NCBI RefSeq assembly: GCF_056712565.1
Contig: NZ_CM160072.1
Length of the DNA stretch: 64,000 bases
Strand: one strand, 5' to 3'
Position 1 is the first letter of the stretch. Each line of letters begins with the position of its first letter. This document shows, in pieces, positions 50,564 through 59,500 of the stretch. The position numbers are program-made.

Positions 50564-53500
50564 TAAATCAGTCGCGCACTTTGTCCGCTTTCTCCCGGGC
50601 TTCTCGCTCGAGAGAGAAAATAATCCGCTGTAATTGCCGCTCCACCGTCGGGCTGACGTTAAGAAAACGGAAGCTCAGACGGGGAGTGGTGATGGTTTCA
50701 TTTTTGCCATCAATCACTTTGCGCTCGCTGATGGAGATTAACTGGGCGTCAAAGTGAAAAACACCCCATTGCCCCATGTTGACTTCAATCTGAGCGAAGC
50801 GCATGCCTTCGTGTAATTCGGCAGGCTTTGCTGTTTCCAGTAATGCGCCCATGCCGCCTAACGACAAATCATGCAGGCGGAAACGTAACGTACTGTTATC
50901 CGCCAGTTTGGTCTGGCAAAAATAAGGCGGATGGAGTGGGGCGGAGATGCGGAAATATCGGCGTCGTTGTACAAACCACAAGGTGGGAGGCGGTACGGTA
51001 ATAAATGCCGGAAGCTGCAAGTATTCACTCTGCTGTAGTTGTTCAACAGTAAACTCGACTTTCGCGCCCTGGGTTTCGGCGGTAATGGTAATATGCTGCG
51101 CCTTTAACACAGCGTTGTTATCTTCGGCCTGACTGCCGAAATCCAGCACCAGTTTATCCGGGGTTATTACCAGTATTTTGCTGATCAGCTGCCCGCCATT
51201 CCAACTGATACGCAAAGGAATTGCGGCTTTGTGCAAATCGCGTAACACGCCCAGGACGGCTAACAGATTTTGTTTCAGGAACTGCTCATGGTAATGACTC
51301 ACGCGGAAAAACTCCTGACTGACAAACTGTCTTTGGTTTATCGGTCACAGTTAACAAAACTTAATACAAATGCGCGAATATTTTTTACATGTTGTTCTTA
51401 AATCAGCCGACATACGCCCAGCATCGATTCCGCCCTTGCCTATACTTAGAGCGTTGACGTAAGCATTTCTTGCGTCCGATTCATCGAAACGAGGGCCTGA
51501 ACATGGGAATTATTGCCTGGATTATTTTTGGCCTGATAGCCGGCATAATCGCCAAGCTAATCATGCCGGGACGTGATGGTGGTGGATTTTTCCTGACCTG
51601 TATTCTTGGGATAGTCGGTGCGGTGGTCGGCGGCTGGCTGGCGACCATGTTTGGCATTGGCGGCTCCATCAGCGGTTTTAATTTGCACAGCTTCCTGGTG
51701 GCGGTGGTGGGCGCTATCCTGGTGCTGGGCGTATTCCGCCTCCTGCGAAGAGAATAAGATTTTCATAAGGCGGATAGCGATACAGATGCCGCTATCCGCT
51801 TTCACATCAGAACGTATACTCGATACCAGCCCAGAAATTGCGACCTTCTTCAATAAACCCTTCACTGTAGGCATATTTGGTATCAAACAGGTTATTGACC
51901 GACGCATTAACGCTGAAGCCATGACCTAAGGTGTAATCGGCTCGAATGTGGGTCACCGCAAAACCGGCGGCTTTTTGTGAACCGTCACTGTTGCTGTAGC
52001 TGGAGGAACGCGCCTCTTCCGACAGCGTTACGCTTAACGGCTCCCACGGTTTGAGAGTCATCCATGCGGTCATTGTCTGCGTTGGCAGATCGGTTATCTT
52101 GCCGATGTCTTTACGTTTGGCATCAGCGTGGATCAGGGCGTAGCTCAATCCTACATCCAGTATATTGCTGATTTTCCCCTTAATACCGGCATCCAGACCG
52201 CTGTAATCCACCGTGCCGCTGTTCTGATTTTGAATGGTATCGGCATCGATATTGTGCGAGAGGATGGCATCACTCACCCGGTTATAGTAAACGCTGACCT
52301 CAAATCCCCAGTCGTGCGTGAAGGCACCATTCCAGGTTAAATCCACCCCGCGCGCGCGTTCCGGCTTGAGCTGCGGGTTAACAATCGCTATCTGGTTATA
52401 CGCAGGTTTGGACGTGGTATAGCGTTCTTTCAGCGTCGGAAAGCGTGTGCGGTCATAGTACGAAAGCGCCAGCGTGTCTTCATTGGCAAAGTGGTATTTC
52501 CCCATCACCTGCCAGTTAAAAGCTGACTGATTGTTGTCGTCATAATGGGTGATACTGCCATCTTTCTCATGTTTTTTCGCTTCTACGCTATCGCGCCAGT
52601 CATAGCTGATTCCAGCCACGACATCGACATTATCGGCAGCAGCCCATTGATATTCACTGGCGAGCGACCAGGTACGATCTTCATAGCGATCGTAAGCGGC
52701 GTGCGGCGCACCTTTTTCCCGGTGTACGTCATCTTTCCAGTTAACGGCAAACGACAGCAGATCGTTTTCACGCACATCGGCTGCCAGTTGTAACCCGGCA
52801 CCGTCGCTGTAATCGGAATAATGGCTGTAGCTGCCTTTTTTATTTTTCAAATCAGCCAGCGAGTTGTACATCATTAGCGTATTTTCAAAGGTGTCGCGAT
52901 ACAGCCGACTTTTCAGGGTAAAACGATCGTTTAGTTGGGTCGTTCCCTGATAATAAAAACTTTCTTTGTCATACTCTGGCCACTGCCAGTAGCGTGATTT
53001 CTGACCACTATTTCCACTGTATGGCGGGTTATCTTTTTCACCATCCTGCTTAATGTAAGTCAATGTGTATTCATCGTTTTCGCGTGGTGTAAAACCGAGC
53101 TTCACAATGCCGCGTTTATCATCAGCCGATGAATTAATCATCTTGCCGTGTTTGCCTGCAATATCATTATTTACACCATGCGGCAGGCCGAGAAAATCCT
53201 GCTTTAGCTGGCTACCGCTGACTTGCAAATACCCCAGATCGCTGCTGGCGGCAAATGAAGCATGCATATCGTAGGCATTGTCCTGGCTACGGCTCCATCC
53301 CTGACGATATCCCAGACTGGCTTCCAGCGGTTTAGTCGGCTTCTGGGTGGTGATATTAATGGCTCCGCCCATCTGATTAGGCCCCTGAAGCAGCGACGAA
53401 TACCCTTTGGAAACTTCAACTGCCCCCAAATTGTTGGTCAGAATCCGCGCCAGATCGAGGTTGCCGTCATAGGGAACATAAATGGGCACACCGTCGAAAT

Positions 53501-56500: not shown

Positions 56501-59500
56501 GACAATCAATCCAAAGCGCAGACGTGTCACGTTCAGTCCCAGCGAACGGGCTTCGTCGTCGGAAAGCGTGAGTAAATTCATGCGCCAGCGGAGAAAAAAC
56601 AGGGGCAAGGAGCCTATGAGAATGATCGGTGCAGCATAGCAGAGATCGCGTAAGGTCACGGTGGACAGCCCCCCCAGCAACCAGAAGGTAATTGACGGTA
56701 ACTGGGTATAAGGATCGGCCAGCGTTTTTATTAGCGATATCCCCGCTCCGCACAACGTTCCTAACGCAATGCCTACCAGCACCAGGGTTAAGATCGGATC
56801 GTGGCGGGTCACCCGACGCGTAATCAACCAGACGCCCGCGACCACCATCAGCCCGCCGCAAAATGCGTACAGCTGGATGTAAACAATGGATAATCCCCAC
56901 AGGATTGCCGCGCAGGCACCAAGTCCGGCACCGGCGGAGACGCCTAAAATATCCGGTGACACTAAGGGATTACGGAACATTCCCTGATAGGTGGTTCCGG
57001 CCCCTGCCAGCGCCGCGCCCAGAAACAGCGCAGCAAGAATACGCGGCACGCGGATTTGCCAGAAGACAATTTGTTCCTGCACAGGAACATTTTCTTGACG
57101 AAGAATGAGCGCCAGCAGTTGCTGCATATCGAGATGATAAGCCCCACTTACGGCGGCAAAAGTGATACTGATAGCTGCCAGCAGCAAAATACATCCGTTT
57201 ACGGTTCTCATTAGCTCGCCACCAATTTTTGATAGTCGGCGTCACTGAGTGAACAATGCCAGAACAGTTGGGCGTAATGCTGTATGTCACTTTTAAACTG
57301 GCGATTGATGGCGGGATCCAGCCAGGCGTGAAGTCTGCGTAATCCCAGAAGACGGTTGATTCCCGGCGGGGCATCCAGCCAGCCAAAGGGCAGGCCACTT
57401 AAAAATAAGATGCGTTGTTCCGCAACCGCTTTCACGCCCTGCCAGAGAGGATCACGACGAATAAAATCTGCAGTAACGGCCTCCTGAACCAGAATAATAT
57501 CCGGCTGCCAGCGCAGGAGATTTTCCATGGAAACCTGTGTCAGACCGTGGCGATCGGCTATTTGCGCGACGTTGTGCAAACCTAATAATTCCGCCGCCTC
57601 GGTATGCAACGAACCCTGTAAGCCCGTTTCCAGCCCTCGAGGACCGCGCGCAGCATAAAAGCTGAGATTAGCGGCGGGTGAGGTGGCGAATGCCTGAGCT
57701 TCACCAACGAAGCGGCTGGCGAGATTGGCTTGTTCTGCGGCGCGGTGCTCTTCGCCTAACGTTTTGCCAAGCGTTGTTAACTGTTCTGCTGATTGTTCCA
57801 GTTTCCCGTTAAGCAATAACCAGGGTATTTGTGTCTGTTCGCTAACCTGCCGTGCCTGGGAGATCCAGGTTTCATCCGTATTGCCGCAATCAACGACCAA
57901 ATCGGGATGTAACGCCATAAGCCCTTCCAGCGAGAGTGTGCTGGCGCGCCCGGCGAGTCGTCCCAGCCTGGGGAACTGGCGAATGTGCTCTGGCAATGGA
58001 ATTAATGCCTGACGGGCAAAATCAAAAGAGGAAAAACCGACCATTTTTTCTGGCGCGACAGCCAGCAATAGTAAATCGGCGGGCGCGCCTGCGCTGACGA
58101 TGCGTGTAATGTTTTGGGCTTCGGGAAGCGTCCGTGAGGCCCAGAATTTGACTGATTGTGCGAAGGACGGCAGATGATGCAGGAACAATGTCGACGCAAG
58201 AATCTGTGTAAACCTCCGTCTGGTTAGTGACATAAGTAATATCCTGATAATTAAAACCGCTATATACTTATACATATAGCGAAAAAGATCATGTTTGATG
58301 TCAAAATTTGTCTAAAGAGACAGAATGATTTGCTTGTTTCTTAAATAACACTTTGTTCCACAAGAAAATTGTCAGGGAGAATGGGGAGTGGGGGAAAATA
58401 TAAATAGAGGTGTAATGATTAACAAGTTGATAAAATAAAATTAAAATCTTCTCTAATAAAAGAAAATAAAGGCATAGACCGTAGAAAGAGTGGTATTTGG
58501 TATTTCGTGATGAAGAAAGAGCAATGCCAATTTTATGCACGTAATGGCATTGCTCGATATACAGTAAAGTTAAGGCGTAGGTTCCGCCTCTTTTTGTTTT
58601 AGCGGCTGTGTTGTTGATTCACTGAGTGGACGCGTCGCCGGAACATTGTCACACGGTTGCTCTTTCGGGCAGATCAAATCCAGCATTTTCAGCGTCACGC
58701 CATTGGTACAGCCAAAGCCATCCTGTAATGGATATTCGCCACCGCCGCCCCCTGTTCCGGTGGTGCTGACATCATATTTTTCCACCAGCTTTTTCTCCCG
58801 GTCATAGGTGTGCTGAACATTGGTCAGGAAGTGCCAGCTAATGTCCATCGCTACCTCTTTTTGCCCGTAGTTTTGTAATCCTTCAGTCGCGACCCACTGC
58901 AACGGTGCCCAGCCGTTTGGCGCATCCCATTGTTGCCCACTTTTCACCGACGTGGTGTTCAGGCCGCCGGGTTGCAGCAGATGTGTTTTCGTCGCCGTCG
59001 CCATTTTGCTGGCGCGATCTTTCGCTGCCGCATTGACGTACAGCGGGAACAGGGCGGCCGCGGTTAACTGATTGCGCACTTTATGACTTTTCAGGTCGTA
59101 ATCGGCATACCAGCCTTGTTGATCGTTCCACAGGTATTTTTCGATCCCTTTTTGACGGGCATTTGCCAGCGTTTCGTACTGGTTTGCCATCGCGTTATCT
59201 CCGATAGCTTTGCTGGCGCGGGCGAGGATTTTTTCCATTTTGAACATCAAGCTGTTCAGATCGACCGGTACGATGCTGGTGGTGCGTAAGGTGTTTAACT
59301 GCTGCGGATTGTCCATCCAGCGCGAGCTGAAATCCCAGCCAGACGCAGCGGCAGAGCGCAGGTCGCGGTAAATTTCAGTGGCAGGTCGATTCGGATTGCT
59401 TTTGGCAGTGGCAATATCTTCCACCCATGACTCTGGTCGTGGCGTATCGCGATCGTCCCAGTAGCGGTTGAGAAGGGTACCATCCTGAAGTTTTACAACG

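What the first reader, a model, noticed from the sequence alone, without database searches (positions are those of the whole stretch)
51807..58281. Accessory ~6.5 kb operon between ymgE and treA: binding protein, permease, ATPase, SAM-methyltransferase, ModD-like protein, TonB-dependent receptor
Six co-directional minus-strand genes with overlapping or abutting start/stop codons sit where, as I recall, K-12 has only ycgY. The transport parts (receptor, FecCD permease, ATPase, Tat-signal binding protein) are of the siderophore/heme/cobalamin type. Embedded between them are a class I methyltransferase and a ModD/QPRTase-fold protein, an unusual pairing that suggests the imported substrate is chemically processed. 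No regulator or biosynthesis gene lies inside the island, and I cannot name the substrate.
Basis: partly seen in the sequence, partly recalled or inferred. Interest (0 to 1): 0.7.

Follow-up and report, generated by a model that had tools for sequence, protein, structure and literature searches.

The report
Molybdate-regulated TonB-dependent uptake operon
A six-gene transport operon that many pathogenic E. coli carry where K-12 has ycgY, long labelled "possibly iron uptake", has a conserved binding site for the molybdate sensor ModE and an inner-membrane pump most like a known molybdate importer, so it most likely scavenges molybdenum rather than iron.

Summary
Six intact, co-directional, mostly overlapping minus-strand genes lie between ymgE and treA: binding protein, FecCD permease, ATPase, class I methyltransferase, ModD and a TonB-dependent receptor. 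The operon is at this site in 2,139 of 5,426 complete E. coli genomes; the others have ycgY. It is the old "prrA-modD-yc73-fepC" cluster (O157 O-island 55, ECs1693-1699). The papers I could read that name it call it putative iron uptake and report no test of that.

A perfect palindrome, CGCTATAT-N8-ATATAGCG (58258-58281), lies 22 nt upstream of the first gene. It has the layout of the K-12 modA and moaA ModE operators and sits 17 nt after a TTGACA. No Fur box is present, although sitA in the same window has one.

In 50 orthologous six-gene loci, 45 keep this box before the binding-protein gene. Of the 30 with a spacer, 27 have a second box before the receptor gene.

The permease's nearest solved relative is Haemophilus MolB, a molybdate importer. 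ModD occurs fused to ModC or NifQ. A Pseudomonas aeruginosa receptor homologue sits beside moaA and narGHJI.

Best reading: a ModE-repressed, TonB-dependent molybdenum-scavenging system. What the methyltransferase and ModD do is unresolved. No experiment supports any of this yet.

The parts
58258..58281 (.). ModE-type operator: perfect palindrome CGCTATAT-N8-ATATAGCG, ending 22 nt upstream of the binding-protein ATG
   Evidence: It is the only match in the 64-kb window at up to 2 mismatches (expected 0.11). It has the same layout as the K-12 modA operator and the moaA operator. It is conserved in O157 Sakai and in 45 of 50 orthologous six-gene loci.
58299..58304 (-). -35-like hexamer TTGACA, exactly 17 nt upstream of the operator, so the operator overlaps the -10/start region
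   Evidence: Read from the sequence. The 17-nt spacing is the same in the six Enterobacteriaceae and Serratia promoters that I counted in the anchored printout (E. coli, Escherichia sp., Citrobacter, Raoultella, Serratia, Enterobacter). The transcription start is inferred, not mapped.
57211..58233 (-). Periplasmic substrate-binding protein (Peripla_BP_2 class) with a twin-arginine signal, MSLTRRRF
   Evidence: Nearest solved structure is 4PAG (profile E 2e-44). Haemophilus MolA (3PSA) scores E 4.5e-15 over the C-terminal lobe only.
56231..57211 (-). FecCD-family (type II ABC importer) permease
   Evidence: Nearest solved relative is HI1471 MolB (2NQ2), E 9e-65 and 222 bits, against FhuB 175, HmuU 168 and BtuC 146 bits.
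55476..56234 (-). ABC ATPase
   Evidence: Best-scoring importer ATPase among solved structures is HI1470 MolC (126.5 bits), only slightly ahead of FhuC (120.9).
54654..55466 (-). Class I SAM-dependent methyltransferase ('yc73'), translationally coupled to ModD through an ATGA overlap
   Evidence: The model has pLDDT 92. It resembles only generic small-molecule methyltransferases, TM 0.5-0.6. It travels with the transporter even in the loci that lack ModD.
53803..54657 (-). ModD: a type II phosphoribosyltransferase fold related to the quinolinate enzyme NadC, but a distinct family
   Evidence: TIGR01334 504 bits (cut-off 179); NadC model 135.6 bits (below its cut-off of 198.4). Active-site comparison. 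Fusions to ModC-like ATPases and to NifQ.
51807..53777 (-). TonB-dependent outer-membrane receptor ('prrA') with a signal peptide and a TonB box, DTLTVWS
   Evidence: It scores below the cut-offs of every named siderophore, heme, B12 and copper receptor model. A P. aeruginosa homologue (45% identity) lies beside moaA and narGHJI.
51770..51799 (.). 10-bp stem-loop between the convergent ymgE and receptor genes; probable shared terminator, also present in K-12
   Evidence: Sequence. Identical in K-12.

Best explanation
The operon is a member of the ModE (molybdate sensor) regulon and serves as a molybdenum-scavenging uptake route.

Proposed mechanism:
1. When molybdate is plentiful, ModE-molybdate binds the palindrome that overlaps the core promoter and shuts the operon off. 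When molybdenum is scarce, the operon is expressed.
2. The TonB-dependent receptor uses energy to concentrate the molybdenum species across the outer membrane. I favour the free oxyanion (molybdate, possibly also tungstate) or a loosely bound form.
3. The Tat-exported binding protein passes it to a MolBC-type type II ABC importer.
4. The translationally coupled methyltransferase-ModD pair acts in the cytoplasm on a step of molybdenum handling, not on iron or siderophores. Its chemistry is unknown. My tentative guess is that ModD, a phosphoribosyltransferase, and the methyltransferase make or modify a small molecule that traps or passes on incoming molybdate.

Shown here: gene content, synteny, the operator sequence and its conservation, absence of a Fur box, and the family relationships.
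Inferred: ModE binding, repression, the cargo, and the roles of the enzymes.
For: 1. Operator.
- CGCTATAT-N8-ATATAGCG at 58258-58281 is the only match in 64 kb (expected 0.11).
- The same pattern recovers the K-12 modA operator (1 mismatch, ending 19 nt before the ATG) and the K-12 moaA site.
- It sits 17 nt after a TTGACA.

2. Conservation of the operator.
- 45 of 50 six-gene loci have the box within 150 nt upstream of the binding-protein gene.
- 27 of the 30 loci with a ModD-receptor spacer have a second box there.
- Box density is 337-fold higher in these promoter windows than in the other 1.49 Mb.
- The flanking sequence is not conserved.
- O157 Sakai keeps the half-sites with a different spacer.

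3. No Fur box. The best match has 6 of 19 mismatches, which is background. sitA in the same window has a 2-mismatch box.

4. Transporter relatives. The permease is nearest to MolB and the ATPase to MolC. In Haemophilus, molABC lies next to modD in what is described as a secondary molybdate transporter (PMC3928620).

5. Other links to molybdenum.
- A TOBE/molbindin gene lies next to the Pectobacterium operon.
- ModD is fused to ModC-like ATPases, to NifQ (E 2.9e-21) and to two TOBE domains.
- ModD lies beside modBC-like genes in Pasteurella, Photobacterium, Yersinia alsatica and Cedecea, and beside modA/modB/modC-, TOBE- and modE-like genes in an Alcaligenaceae genome; ModE boxes are present in these loci.

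6. Independent support for the receptor.
- The P. aeruginosa homologue lies beside an Oxidored_molyb gene, moaA and narIJHG, with a palindrome CGTTATGT-N8-GCATAACG 15 nt before its ATG.
- The five-gene versions in Shewanella and Edwardsiella also carry exact boxes.
Against: - There is no experimental evidence: no ModE binding, expression or transport data for this operon in anything I could read.
- The binding protein is only distantly related to MolA. Its nearest solved relative, 4PAG, has no known ligand.
- From memory, MolA binds molybdate only weakly (about 100 uM). That fits poorly with a TonB-dependent scavenging system and could mean the real ligand is something else.
- Molybdate is small enough to pass porins, so the need for a receptor is not obvious.
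- The receptor matches no characterised receptor closely enough to name a ligand.
- The methyltransferase structure search gave nothing specific.
- The AT-rich palindrome was also flagged as a weak terminator-like hairpin.
- Many of the 50 loci are close relatives, so the counts overstate the number of independent events.
Confidence: 0.6

Rival explanations
1. The cargo is a molybdenum (or tungsten) chelate, a 'molybdophore' such as a catecholate-molybdate complex. The receptor and binding protein recognise the complex, and the methyltransferase and ModD modify the organic ligand in the cytoplasm to release the metal.
For: TonB-dependent receptors and type II ABC importers usually carry chelates or cofactors (established knowledge). 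The low affinity of MolA for free molybdate (from memory) hints at a different true ligand. The methyltransferase accompanies the transporter in every variant found and looks like a small-molecule methyltransferase. ModD keeps the phosphoribosyltransferase catalytic residues but has an altered substrate pocket. ModE control fits this reading as well as the main one.
Against: No biosynthesis genes are linked in any locus. MT-ModD exists without any transporter in Edwardsiella. ModD sits with modBC-like oxyanion transporter genes in several genera. The P. aeruginosa receptor has no dedicated ABC importer next to it, which suggests its cargo can feed the ordinary molybdate route. The permease is closest to MolB, which is described (from memory) as a small-substrate importer.
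Confidence: 0.2
2. It is what the literature assumes: an iron, siderophore or heme uptake system that contributes to the iron supply of pathogenic E. coli.
For: Annotation names such as 'iron ABC transporter substrate-binding protein'. The literature calls it 'possibly mediating iron uptake' and lists it among iron loci (PMC1890555, PMC2323221, PMC12928451). There are weak profile matches to siderophore and heme receptor and binding-protein families.
Against: There is no Fur box, whereas sitA in the same window has a clear one. Every iron-family match falls far below its curated cut-off. A ModE-type operator is conserved instead. The gene neighbours elsewhere concern molybdenum, not iron. The papers I could read that name the cluster report no experiment supporting an iron role.
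Confidence: 0.06
3. The system is ModE-controlled, but it imports something other than molybdenum that cells need when molybdenum is short. Candidates are tungstate or vanadate as the main cargo, or a pre-made pterin or molybdenum cofactor (or a breakdown product) salvaged from the host or neighbouring microbes, with ModD and the methyltransferase reworking the heterocycle.
For: A receptor plus a BtuCD-class importer plus two small-molecule enzymes resembles cofactor salvage systems such as the B12 one (established knowledge). ModD is related to enzymes that act on N-heterocyclic carboxylates. From memory, ModE also responds to tungstate.
Against: No homology to any pterin or cofactor-handling protein was found. 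There is no Moco riboswitch. The ModD fusions are to ModC, NifQ and TOBE, which handle the oxyanion or the metal, not pterins. The permease is closest to the small-substrate importer MolB.
Confidence: 0.08
4. The palindrome is not a ModE site. It could be another regulator's site or a hairpin, and the operon's regulation and cargo would then remain unknown.
For: The consensus scan flagged it as terminator-like. The region is very AT-rich (31% GC), where TATA-like palindromes arise more easily. No binding data exist.
Against: It is an exact match to the half-sites of two known E. coli ModE operators. Half-site sequence is conserved while spacers and flanks vary, which is the opposite of what a hairpin would show. 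Second copies lie before receptor genes, and boxes lie immediately upstream of ModD or of the modBC-like genes next to it in unrelated contexts. Enrichment is 337-fold.
Confidence: 0.06

Closest known systems
Haemophilus influenzae MolABC (HI1470-HI1472, type II ABC importer for molybdate/tungstate) with the adjacent modD (HI1473)
   Same: Binding protein of the same class, FecCD-type permease and ATPase, with ModD next door. The permease is the closest solved relative of the E. coli permease (222 bits). The ATPase is the best-scoring importer ATPase. The locus is described as a secondary molybdate transporter (PMC3928620).
   Different: The E. coli operon adds a TonB-dependent receptor and a methyltransferase. 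Its binding protein is only distantly related to MolA (C-terminal lobe, E 4.5e-15) and is closer to the uncharacterised 4PAG. I did not examine ModE control of the Haemophilus locus.
E. coli ModABC with ModE repression at the modA operator
   Same: An operator of the same sequence type sits at the same place, about 20 nt upstream of the first gene of an uptake operon. The predicted logic is the same: repressed when molybdate is plentiful (ModE as repressor of molybdate uptake, PMC11672702).
   Different: ModABC is a type I ABC importer with a class II binding protein, no outer-membrane component and no enzymes. The proteins are not homologous beyond the ATPase.
modABCD of Rhodobacter capsulatus and Geobacter sulfurreducens (ModD encoded with the molybdate transporter)
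   Same: The ModD family member is encoded with molybdate uptake genes (Geobacter GSU2963, PMC2700814; the Rhodobacter case is from memory). This matches the contexts where ModD lies beside modBC-like genes found here.
   Different: Those operons have no receptor, no MolBC-type importer and no methyltransferase. The function of ModD is unknown there too.
TonB-dependent receptors for free or loosely bound metals (ZnuD for zinc, OprC/NosA for copper, FrpB4 for nickel); named from memory
   Same: They set a precedent for energised outer-membrane uptake of a metal that is not in a classical siderophore, under the control of that metal's own sensor rather than Fur.
   Different: No specific sequence relationship was detected. 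The copper receptor model scores 51 bits against a cut-off of 472. No TonB-dependent receptor for an oxyanion is established, as far as I know.
Catecholate 'metallophore' uptake of molybdenum and vanadium in Azotobacter vinelandii; from memory
   Same: The concept of TonB-dependent acquisition of molybdenum as a chelate when molybdenum is limiting.
   Different: That system relies on siderophore biosynthesis, and its receptors are not defined. No biosynthesis genes accompany this operon and no homology was tested.

Membership tests
ModE regulon (operator-bearing promoter) | Palindromic operator of the type CGnTATAT-N8-ATATAnCG (TATAT-N7-TAYAT core), as in known E. coli ModE sites | tested here: met
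   0 mismatches at 58258-58281. The same pattern finds the K-12 modA operator (1 mismatch) and the moaA site (1 mismatch).
ModE regulon (operator-bearing promoter) | The site is positioned in or over the core promoter of the regulated operon and is conserved in orthologous promoters | tested here: met
   17 nt after TTGACA and 22 nt before the ATG. 45 of 50 binding-protein promoters and 27 of 30 receptor promoters keep a box, a 337-fold enrichment. The transcription start itself is not mapped.
ModE regulon (operator-bearing promoter) | ModE-molybdate binds the site and expression responds to molybdate | not testable with these tools
   Needs a gel-shift or footprint assay and reporter assays. 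No such data were found in the papers I could read.
MolBC-A type II molybdate/tungstate ABC importer | FecCD-family permease and ATPase closest to MolB and MolC | tested here: met
   Permease: 2NQ2_A 9e-65 and 222 bits, against 175 bits for the next family. ATPase: 2NQ2_C 126.5 bits against FhuC 120.9, a marginal lead.
MolBC-A type II molybdate/tungstate ABC importer | Binding protein orthologous to MolA, with its oxyanion pocket | tested here: inconclusive
   MolA matches only over the C-terminal lobe (E 1e-7 for the single sequence, 4.5e-15 for the profile). 4PAG, whose ligand is unknown, is far closer. Pocket residues could not be compared because the MolA paper is not held.
MolBC-A type II molybdate/tungstate ABC importer | Binds and transports molybdate or tungstate | not testable with these tools
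   Needs binding and transport assays.
ModD (TIGR01334) | Scores above the curated family cut-off over the full length | tested here: met
   504.4 bits against a cut-off of 178.85, residues 2-278 of 284.
Quinolinate phosphoribosyltransferase NadC (TIGR00078) | Scores above the NadC cut-off and keeps the quinolinate-binding residues | tested here: not met
   135.6 bits against a cut-off of 198.4. Equivalents of R139, K140, H161, R162, E201 and D222 are kept. K172 is replaced by phenylalanine (invariant across the ModD family), D173 by alanine and R105 by lysine (residue roles are from memory).
TonB-dependent outer-membrane transporter | Signal peptide, TonB box, plug and 22-strand barrel domains | tested here: met
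   MRLKKRYLCTVLTLAFTQQAVA, then DTLTVWS. Plug and barrel Pfam domains are recorded for the orthologues.
Fur-regulated siderophore, heme or B12 uptake system | Fur box at the promoter | tested here: not met
   Best match has 6 of 19 mismatches, which is background for AT-rich DNA. The positive control, sitA in the same window, has 2 mismatches.
Fur-regulated siderophore, heme or B12 uptake system | Receptor or binding protein reaches the cut-off of a named siderophore, heme or B12 family | tested here: not met
   Receptor: siderophore 127 against 223.5, heme 124.5 against 316.85, B12 79.8 against 599.7. Binding protein: at most 32 bits against cut-offs of 205-325.
Class I SAM-dependent methyltransferase | Rossmann-type fold with the glycine-rich SAM-binding motif | tested here: met
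   DxGCGPG motif is invariant. Pfam Methyltransf_11/25/31. Model pLDDT 92, matching small-molecule methyltransferases. No substrate-specific family reached its cut-off.

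The most novel reading that the evidence does not exclude
Pathogenic E. coli and many other Enterobacterales, with Shewanella and (receptor only) Pseudomonas aeruginosa, have a TonB-dependent outer-membrane pathway dedicated to molybdenum. It is switched on by ModE when molybdenum is scarce. The coupled methyltransferase-ModD pair would be a previously unrecognised enzymatic step in molybdenum trafficking. 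This would be the first TonB-dependent route for an oxyanion metal. It would also give a testable function to ModD, unexplained (from memory) since the 1990s, and reclassify a supposed iron and virulence locus.
Probability: 0.45. Interest if true: 0.8.

Novelty: new variant of a known kind. Interest (0 to 1): 0.62.

Why it matters
Molybdoenzymes such as nitrate, formate, DMSO and TMAO oxidoreductases drive the anaerobic respiration that lets Enterobacteriaceae bloom in the inflamed gut and urinary tract (established knowledge). How they obtain molybdenum under host restriction is known only for ModABC.

If this operon is a molybdenum-starvation-induced, TonB-dependent uptake route, four things follow:
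- A locus present in about 40% of E. coli has been filed under the wrong metal for 25 years. It is present in the B2 type strain, APEC O2:K1:H7 and O157:H7, and absent from K-12 and from O26, O111 and O103 strains.
- Energised outer-membrane transport would extend to an oxyanion metal.
- ModD and its partner methyltransferase become testable, with clear mutant phenotypes to look for.
- The receptor becomes a candidate surface antigen, or an entry route for Trojan-horse antibiotics, that is expressed under molybdenum limitation rather than iron limitation.

Tried and rejected
- **Fur control.** A scan with the 19-bp Fur consensus found nothing at the operon (best match 6 mismatches) but did find sitA's box in the same window. 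Rejected.
- **Moco riboswitch or any other Rfam RNA in 51300-58800.** None at E up to 1.
- **Naming the methyltransferase's substrate.** The NCBIfam best hit was 43 bits against a cut-off of 180. The PDB sequence search gave only motif-level hits. A confident model searched with Foldseek returned only generic natural-product and phospholipid methyltransferases at TM 0.5-0.6. Uninformative.
- **Naming the receptor's ligand.** PDB sequence hits covered the plug domain only.
- **Binding protein as a MolA orthologue.** Only partial similarity.
- **The Yersinia YiuABC/YiuR system.** I recalled it as a possible relative and searched for it in the papers, but found no sequence link in the PDB search, where YiuA did not appear. 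Dropped.
- **Locus search with a 34-sequence ModD alignment.** It was too diverse for the tool. A 9-sequence alignment worked.
- **Literature.** The first searches on 'ModD' mostly returned an unrelated ModD DNA methyltransferase. Studholme & Pau 2003, Tirado-Lee 2011 and Guyer 1998 are not held. I therefore could not check whether a ModE site at this operon was ever listed, and I could not compare MolA pocket residues.
- **A second, pathogenicity-island copy in E. coli.** Almost every genome with the operon has a single place (2,152 places in 2,149 genomes, at most two per genome).

Full report
**What is there.** Window 51807-58275 holds six intact, co-directional minus-strand ORFs. RefSeq annotates the same six genes in an identical copy from APEC O2:K1:H7. 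With the starts supported by conservation, they are:

| Gene | Coordinates | Basis |
|---|---|---|
| Substrate-binding protein, twin-arginine signal MSLTRRRF | 57211-58233 | |
| FecCD-family permease | 56231-57211 | |
| ABC ATPase | 55476-56234 | |
| Class I SAM methyltransferase | 54654-55466 | |
| ModD (TIGR01334, 504 bits, cut-off 179) | 53803-54657 | |
| TonB-dependent receptor, signal peptide and TonB box DTLTVWS | 51807-53777 | |

Neighbouring genes overlap by 1 or 4 nt or are 9-25 nt apart, which indicates one translationally coupled operon. A 10-bp stem-loop (51770-51799) lies between the receptor gene and the convergent ymgE gene.

**Distribution and boundaries.** The operon is at this site in 2,139 of 5,426 complete E. 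coli genomes. The interior is 100% identical to the type strain ATCC 11775 and about 98% identical in O157:H7. Almost every genome with it has a single place (2,152 places in 2,149 genomes, at most two per genome). K-12-type genomes have ycgY instead. Homology with K-12 runs through the hairpin, the receptor stop codon and its last 7 codons, to about 51831. It resumes at the treA stop codon, 58570. K-12 therefore carries a remnant of the receptor gene. Its state looks like a replacement of the operon, not the ancestral empty site.

**What the literature calls it.** The O157 Sakai genes are ECs1693-1699, equal to Z1961-Z1966, and form O-island 55 / S-loop 83. [quoted passage not shown] The locus is listed among iron-uptake loci, present in O157 and absent from K-12, O26, O111 and O103 (PMC2323221). 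A paper from February 2026 still says "possibly mediating iron uptake" (PMC12928451). None of my ten literature searches found a paper that tests this or that links the cluster to ModE or molybdenum. Three relevant older papers are not held, so prior listing of a ModE site cannot be excluded.

**The regulator site.**
- The sequence just upstream of the first gene reads TTGACA-17 nt-CGCTATATGTATAAGTATATAGCG-22 nt-ATG.
- The 24-mer (58258-58281) is a perfect palindrome of the form CGnTATAT-N8-ATATAnCG. It is the only match in the 64-kb window even at 2 mismatches (expected 0.11).
- The same pattern picks out the K-12 modA operator, CGTTATATTGTCGCCTACATAACG, ending 19 nt before the modA ATG. It also finds the site upstream of K-12 moaA.
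- ModE-molybdate is the repressor of molybdate uptake in E. coli (PMC11672702).
- A Fur consensus scan finds nothing here. The best match has 6 of 19 mismatches, which is background for AT-rich DNA. The same scan finds a 2-mismatch Fur box in front of sitA elsewhere in the window.
- No Moco riboswitch or other Rfam RNA is present.

**Conservation of the site.** A search seeded with ModD returned 80 genomic loci.
- Fifty of them have the same six genes in the same order. The genera are Escherichia, Citrobacter, Raoultella, Klebsiella, Enterobacter, Serratia, Symbiopectobacterium, Proteus, Morganella, Providencia, Pantoea, Erwinia, Pectobacterium and Affinibrenneria.
- Forty-five of the 50 have a box with at most 2 mismatches within 150 nt upstream of the binding-protein gene. 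Four of the other five have one slightly further upstream.
- Thirty loci have a spacer longer than 60 nt between ModD and the receptor gene, and 27 of these have a second box there.
- Boxes are 337 times denser in these promoter windows than in the remaining 1.49 Mb. Some of the boxes elsewhere lie immediately upstream of ModD or of the modBC-like genes next to it.
- Promoters printed side by side, anchored on the box, show that only the box half-sites and a -35-like TTGAC(A/T) are conserved.
- O157 Sakai keeps the half-sites with a different spacer.
- Sequence conservation of half-sites with free spacers is what a protein-binding site shows, not a hairpin. This answers the terminator-like flag.
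- Many of the loci are close relatives, so the counts are not independent events. The span, down to about 45% protein identity, is nevertheless wide.

**Other links to molybdenum.**
- The permease's nearest solved relative is H. influenzae HI1471 (MolB) at 222 bits, well above FhuB (175), HmuU (168) and BtuC (146).
- The ATPase's best-scoring importer relative is HI1470 (MolC), by a small margin.
- In Haemophilus, molABC lies next to modD, and the cluster is described as a secondary molybdate transporter (PMC3928620).
- The binding protein is only distantly related to MolA (C-terminal lobe, profile E 4.5e-15). It is much closer to 4PAG, whose ligand is unknown.
- Pectobacterium has a 142-residue TOBE (molbindin-type) gene just upstream of the operon.
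- Across 1.8 billion representative proteins, ModD relatives include fusions to ModC-like ATPases, to NifQ (Pfam E 2.9e-21) and to two TOBE domains.
- ModD lies beside modBC-like genes in Pasteurella, Photobacterium, Yersinia alsatica and Cedecea. In one Alcaligenaceae genome it lies beside modA-, modB-, modC-, TOBE- and modE-like genes. ModE boxes are present in these loci.
- Geobacter has modD within modE-modD-modABC (PMC2700814).
- The Zymomonas nif cluster holds modD, modE and two TonB-dependent transporters (PMC8594446).

**Independent evidence for the receptor.** Receptor homologues occur outside the six-gene arrangement.
- Shewanella and Edwardsiella have a five-gene version without ModD (binding protein, permease, ATPase, methyltransferase, receptor). 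It has exact boxes before the binding-protein gene, and in Shewanella also before the receptor gene.
- In P. aeruginosa, a 45%-identical receptor is encoded with a small Oxidored_molyb-domain gene. This pair lies directly beside moaA, a ppiC-type gene and narIJHG. The same context was seen in 23 further places that the tool grouped as similar and did not show.
- A perfect palindrome, CGTTATGT-N8-GCATAACG, lies 15 nt before its ATG.
- That receptor has no dedicated ABC importer nearby. This suggests its cargo can enter the ordinary molybdate route, which is my main reason for favouring the oxyanion over a chelate.

**The two enzymes.**
- ModD keeps the equivalents of the M. tuberculosis quinolinate phosphoribosyltransferase residues R139, K140, H161, R162, E201 and D222.
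- It replaces K172 with a phenylalanine that is invariant across the ModD family, D173 with alanine and R105 with lysine. It scores below the NadC cut-off.
- It is therefore probably an active phosphoribosyltransferase with a different acceptor. The roles of these residues are from memory.
- The methyltransferase has a normal SAM-binding motif and a family-specific CDIAVASRST motif. A confident model (pLDDT 92) resembles only generic small-molecule methyltransferases.
- The two genes overlap by ATGA and stay adjacent in all 50 six-gene loci.
- They also occur as a free-standing pair with its own box in Edwardsiella, which keeps the transporter, with a second methyltransferase paralogue, at another site.
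- In Shewanella mangrovi a 64%-identical methyltransferase stands alone.
- The enzymes are therefore true members of the system but are not strictly tied to the receptor route.

**Conclusion and limits.**
- Best-supported reading: a ModE-repressed operon, induced by molybdenum starvation, that takes up molybdenum through a TonB-dependent receptor, a Tat-exported binding protein and a MolBC-type importer. An associated methyltransferase-ModD pair has unknown chemistry.
- My confidence in ModE control is about 0.85. My confidence that molybdenum or tungsten is the cargo is about 0.6. I favour the free oxyanion over a chelate by roughly 2 to 1.
- Arguments against: there are no experiments; the link to MolA is weak; MolA's reported affinity for molybdate is low (from memory); and it is unclear why a porin-permeable anion would need a receptor.
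- The iron hypothesis has no support beyond annotation names.
- The locus itself is known and named, so this is not a new object. The functional assignment appears to be new, and it makes the long-open question of ModD's function testable.

Noticed in passing
window 18091-19927: sitA (18918-19832) and the ATPase gene downstream of it (18091-18918), the first two genes of a sit-type manganese/iron transporter, lie on the minus strand. A good Fur box (GCTAATGATAATCATTTTC, 2 mismatches) sits at 19909-19927, upstream of sitA. I used it as the positive control for the Fur scan.
   Followed up: partly
window 51807-51831 versus L002 (K-12): K-12 keeps the stop codon and last 7 codons of the receptor gene, plus the shared hairpin. 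In K-12-type strains the ycgY segment therefore replaced the operon; the operon was not inserted into an empty site.
   Followed up: partly
L090 6963-9525 (Pseudomonas aeruginosa): A 45%-identical receptor homologue is encoded with a 182-residue Oxidored_molyb-domain gene, directly beside moaA, a ppiC-type gene and narIJHG. A perfect palindrome, CGTTATGT-N8-GCATAACG, lies 15 nt before its ATG. I could not assign a PAO1 locus tag.
   Followed up: partly
L088 8001-9661 and L092 3338-8968 (Edwardsiella tarda): The system is split. A methyltransferase-ModD pair with its own ModE-type box lies at one site. At another site lies a five-gene operon (binding protein, permease, ATPase, methyltransferase, receptor) without ModD. 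The genome therefore has two methyltransferase paralogues.
   Followed up: partly
proteins P0262, P0267, P0313, P0290: Natural fusions of ModD: to ModC-like ABC ATPases (P0262, P0267), to NifQ, the molybdenum donor for nitrogenase cofactor synthesis (P0313), and a truncated ModD joined to two TOBE domains (P0290, which may be an assembly or gene-calling artefact).
   Followed up: partly
L005 4472-4900 (Pectobacterium parmentieri); also L051 and L052: A 142-residue double-TOBE (molbindin-like) gene lies immediately upstream of the Pectobacterium version of the operon. An Oxidored_molyb/ferric-reductase gene pair (MsrPQ-like) lies about 3 kb downstream.
   Followed up: no
window 58234-58569: The spacer between treA and the operon is unusually AT-rich (31% GC). 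It contains a 79-codon ORF (58301-58540), part of which is annotated as a hypothetical protein in O157 Sakai (ECs_5716). I saw no evidence that it is a gene. The 3' end of treA also differs from K-12.
   Followed up: no
L006 20603-22506 and 29773-31230 (O157:H7 Sakai): In Sakai, ycgR next to the operon is disrupted by an IS629/IS1203 element. treA is annotated shorter (1,458 nt) than in the window (1,698 nt). The methyltransferase gene is also annotated short there (645 nt, ECs_1696).
   Followed up: no
L004 8001-8807 (Shewanella mangrovi): A 64%-identical homologue of the methyltransferase stands alone, away from any transporter or ModD gene. No ModE-type box lies near it.
   Followed up: no
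PMC8594446 (Zymomonas mobilis nif cluster): The paper lists modD, modE and two TonB-dependent transporters, annotated as iron-associated, inside the nitrogen-fixation gene cluster. This may be another case of a receptor paired with molybdenum genes. I did not examine the sequences.
   Followed up: no
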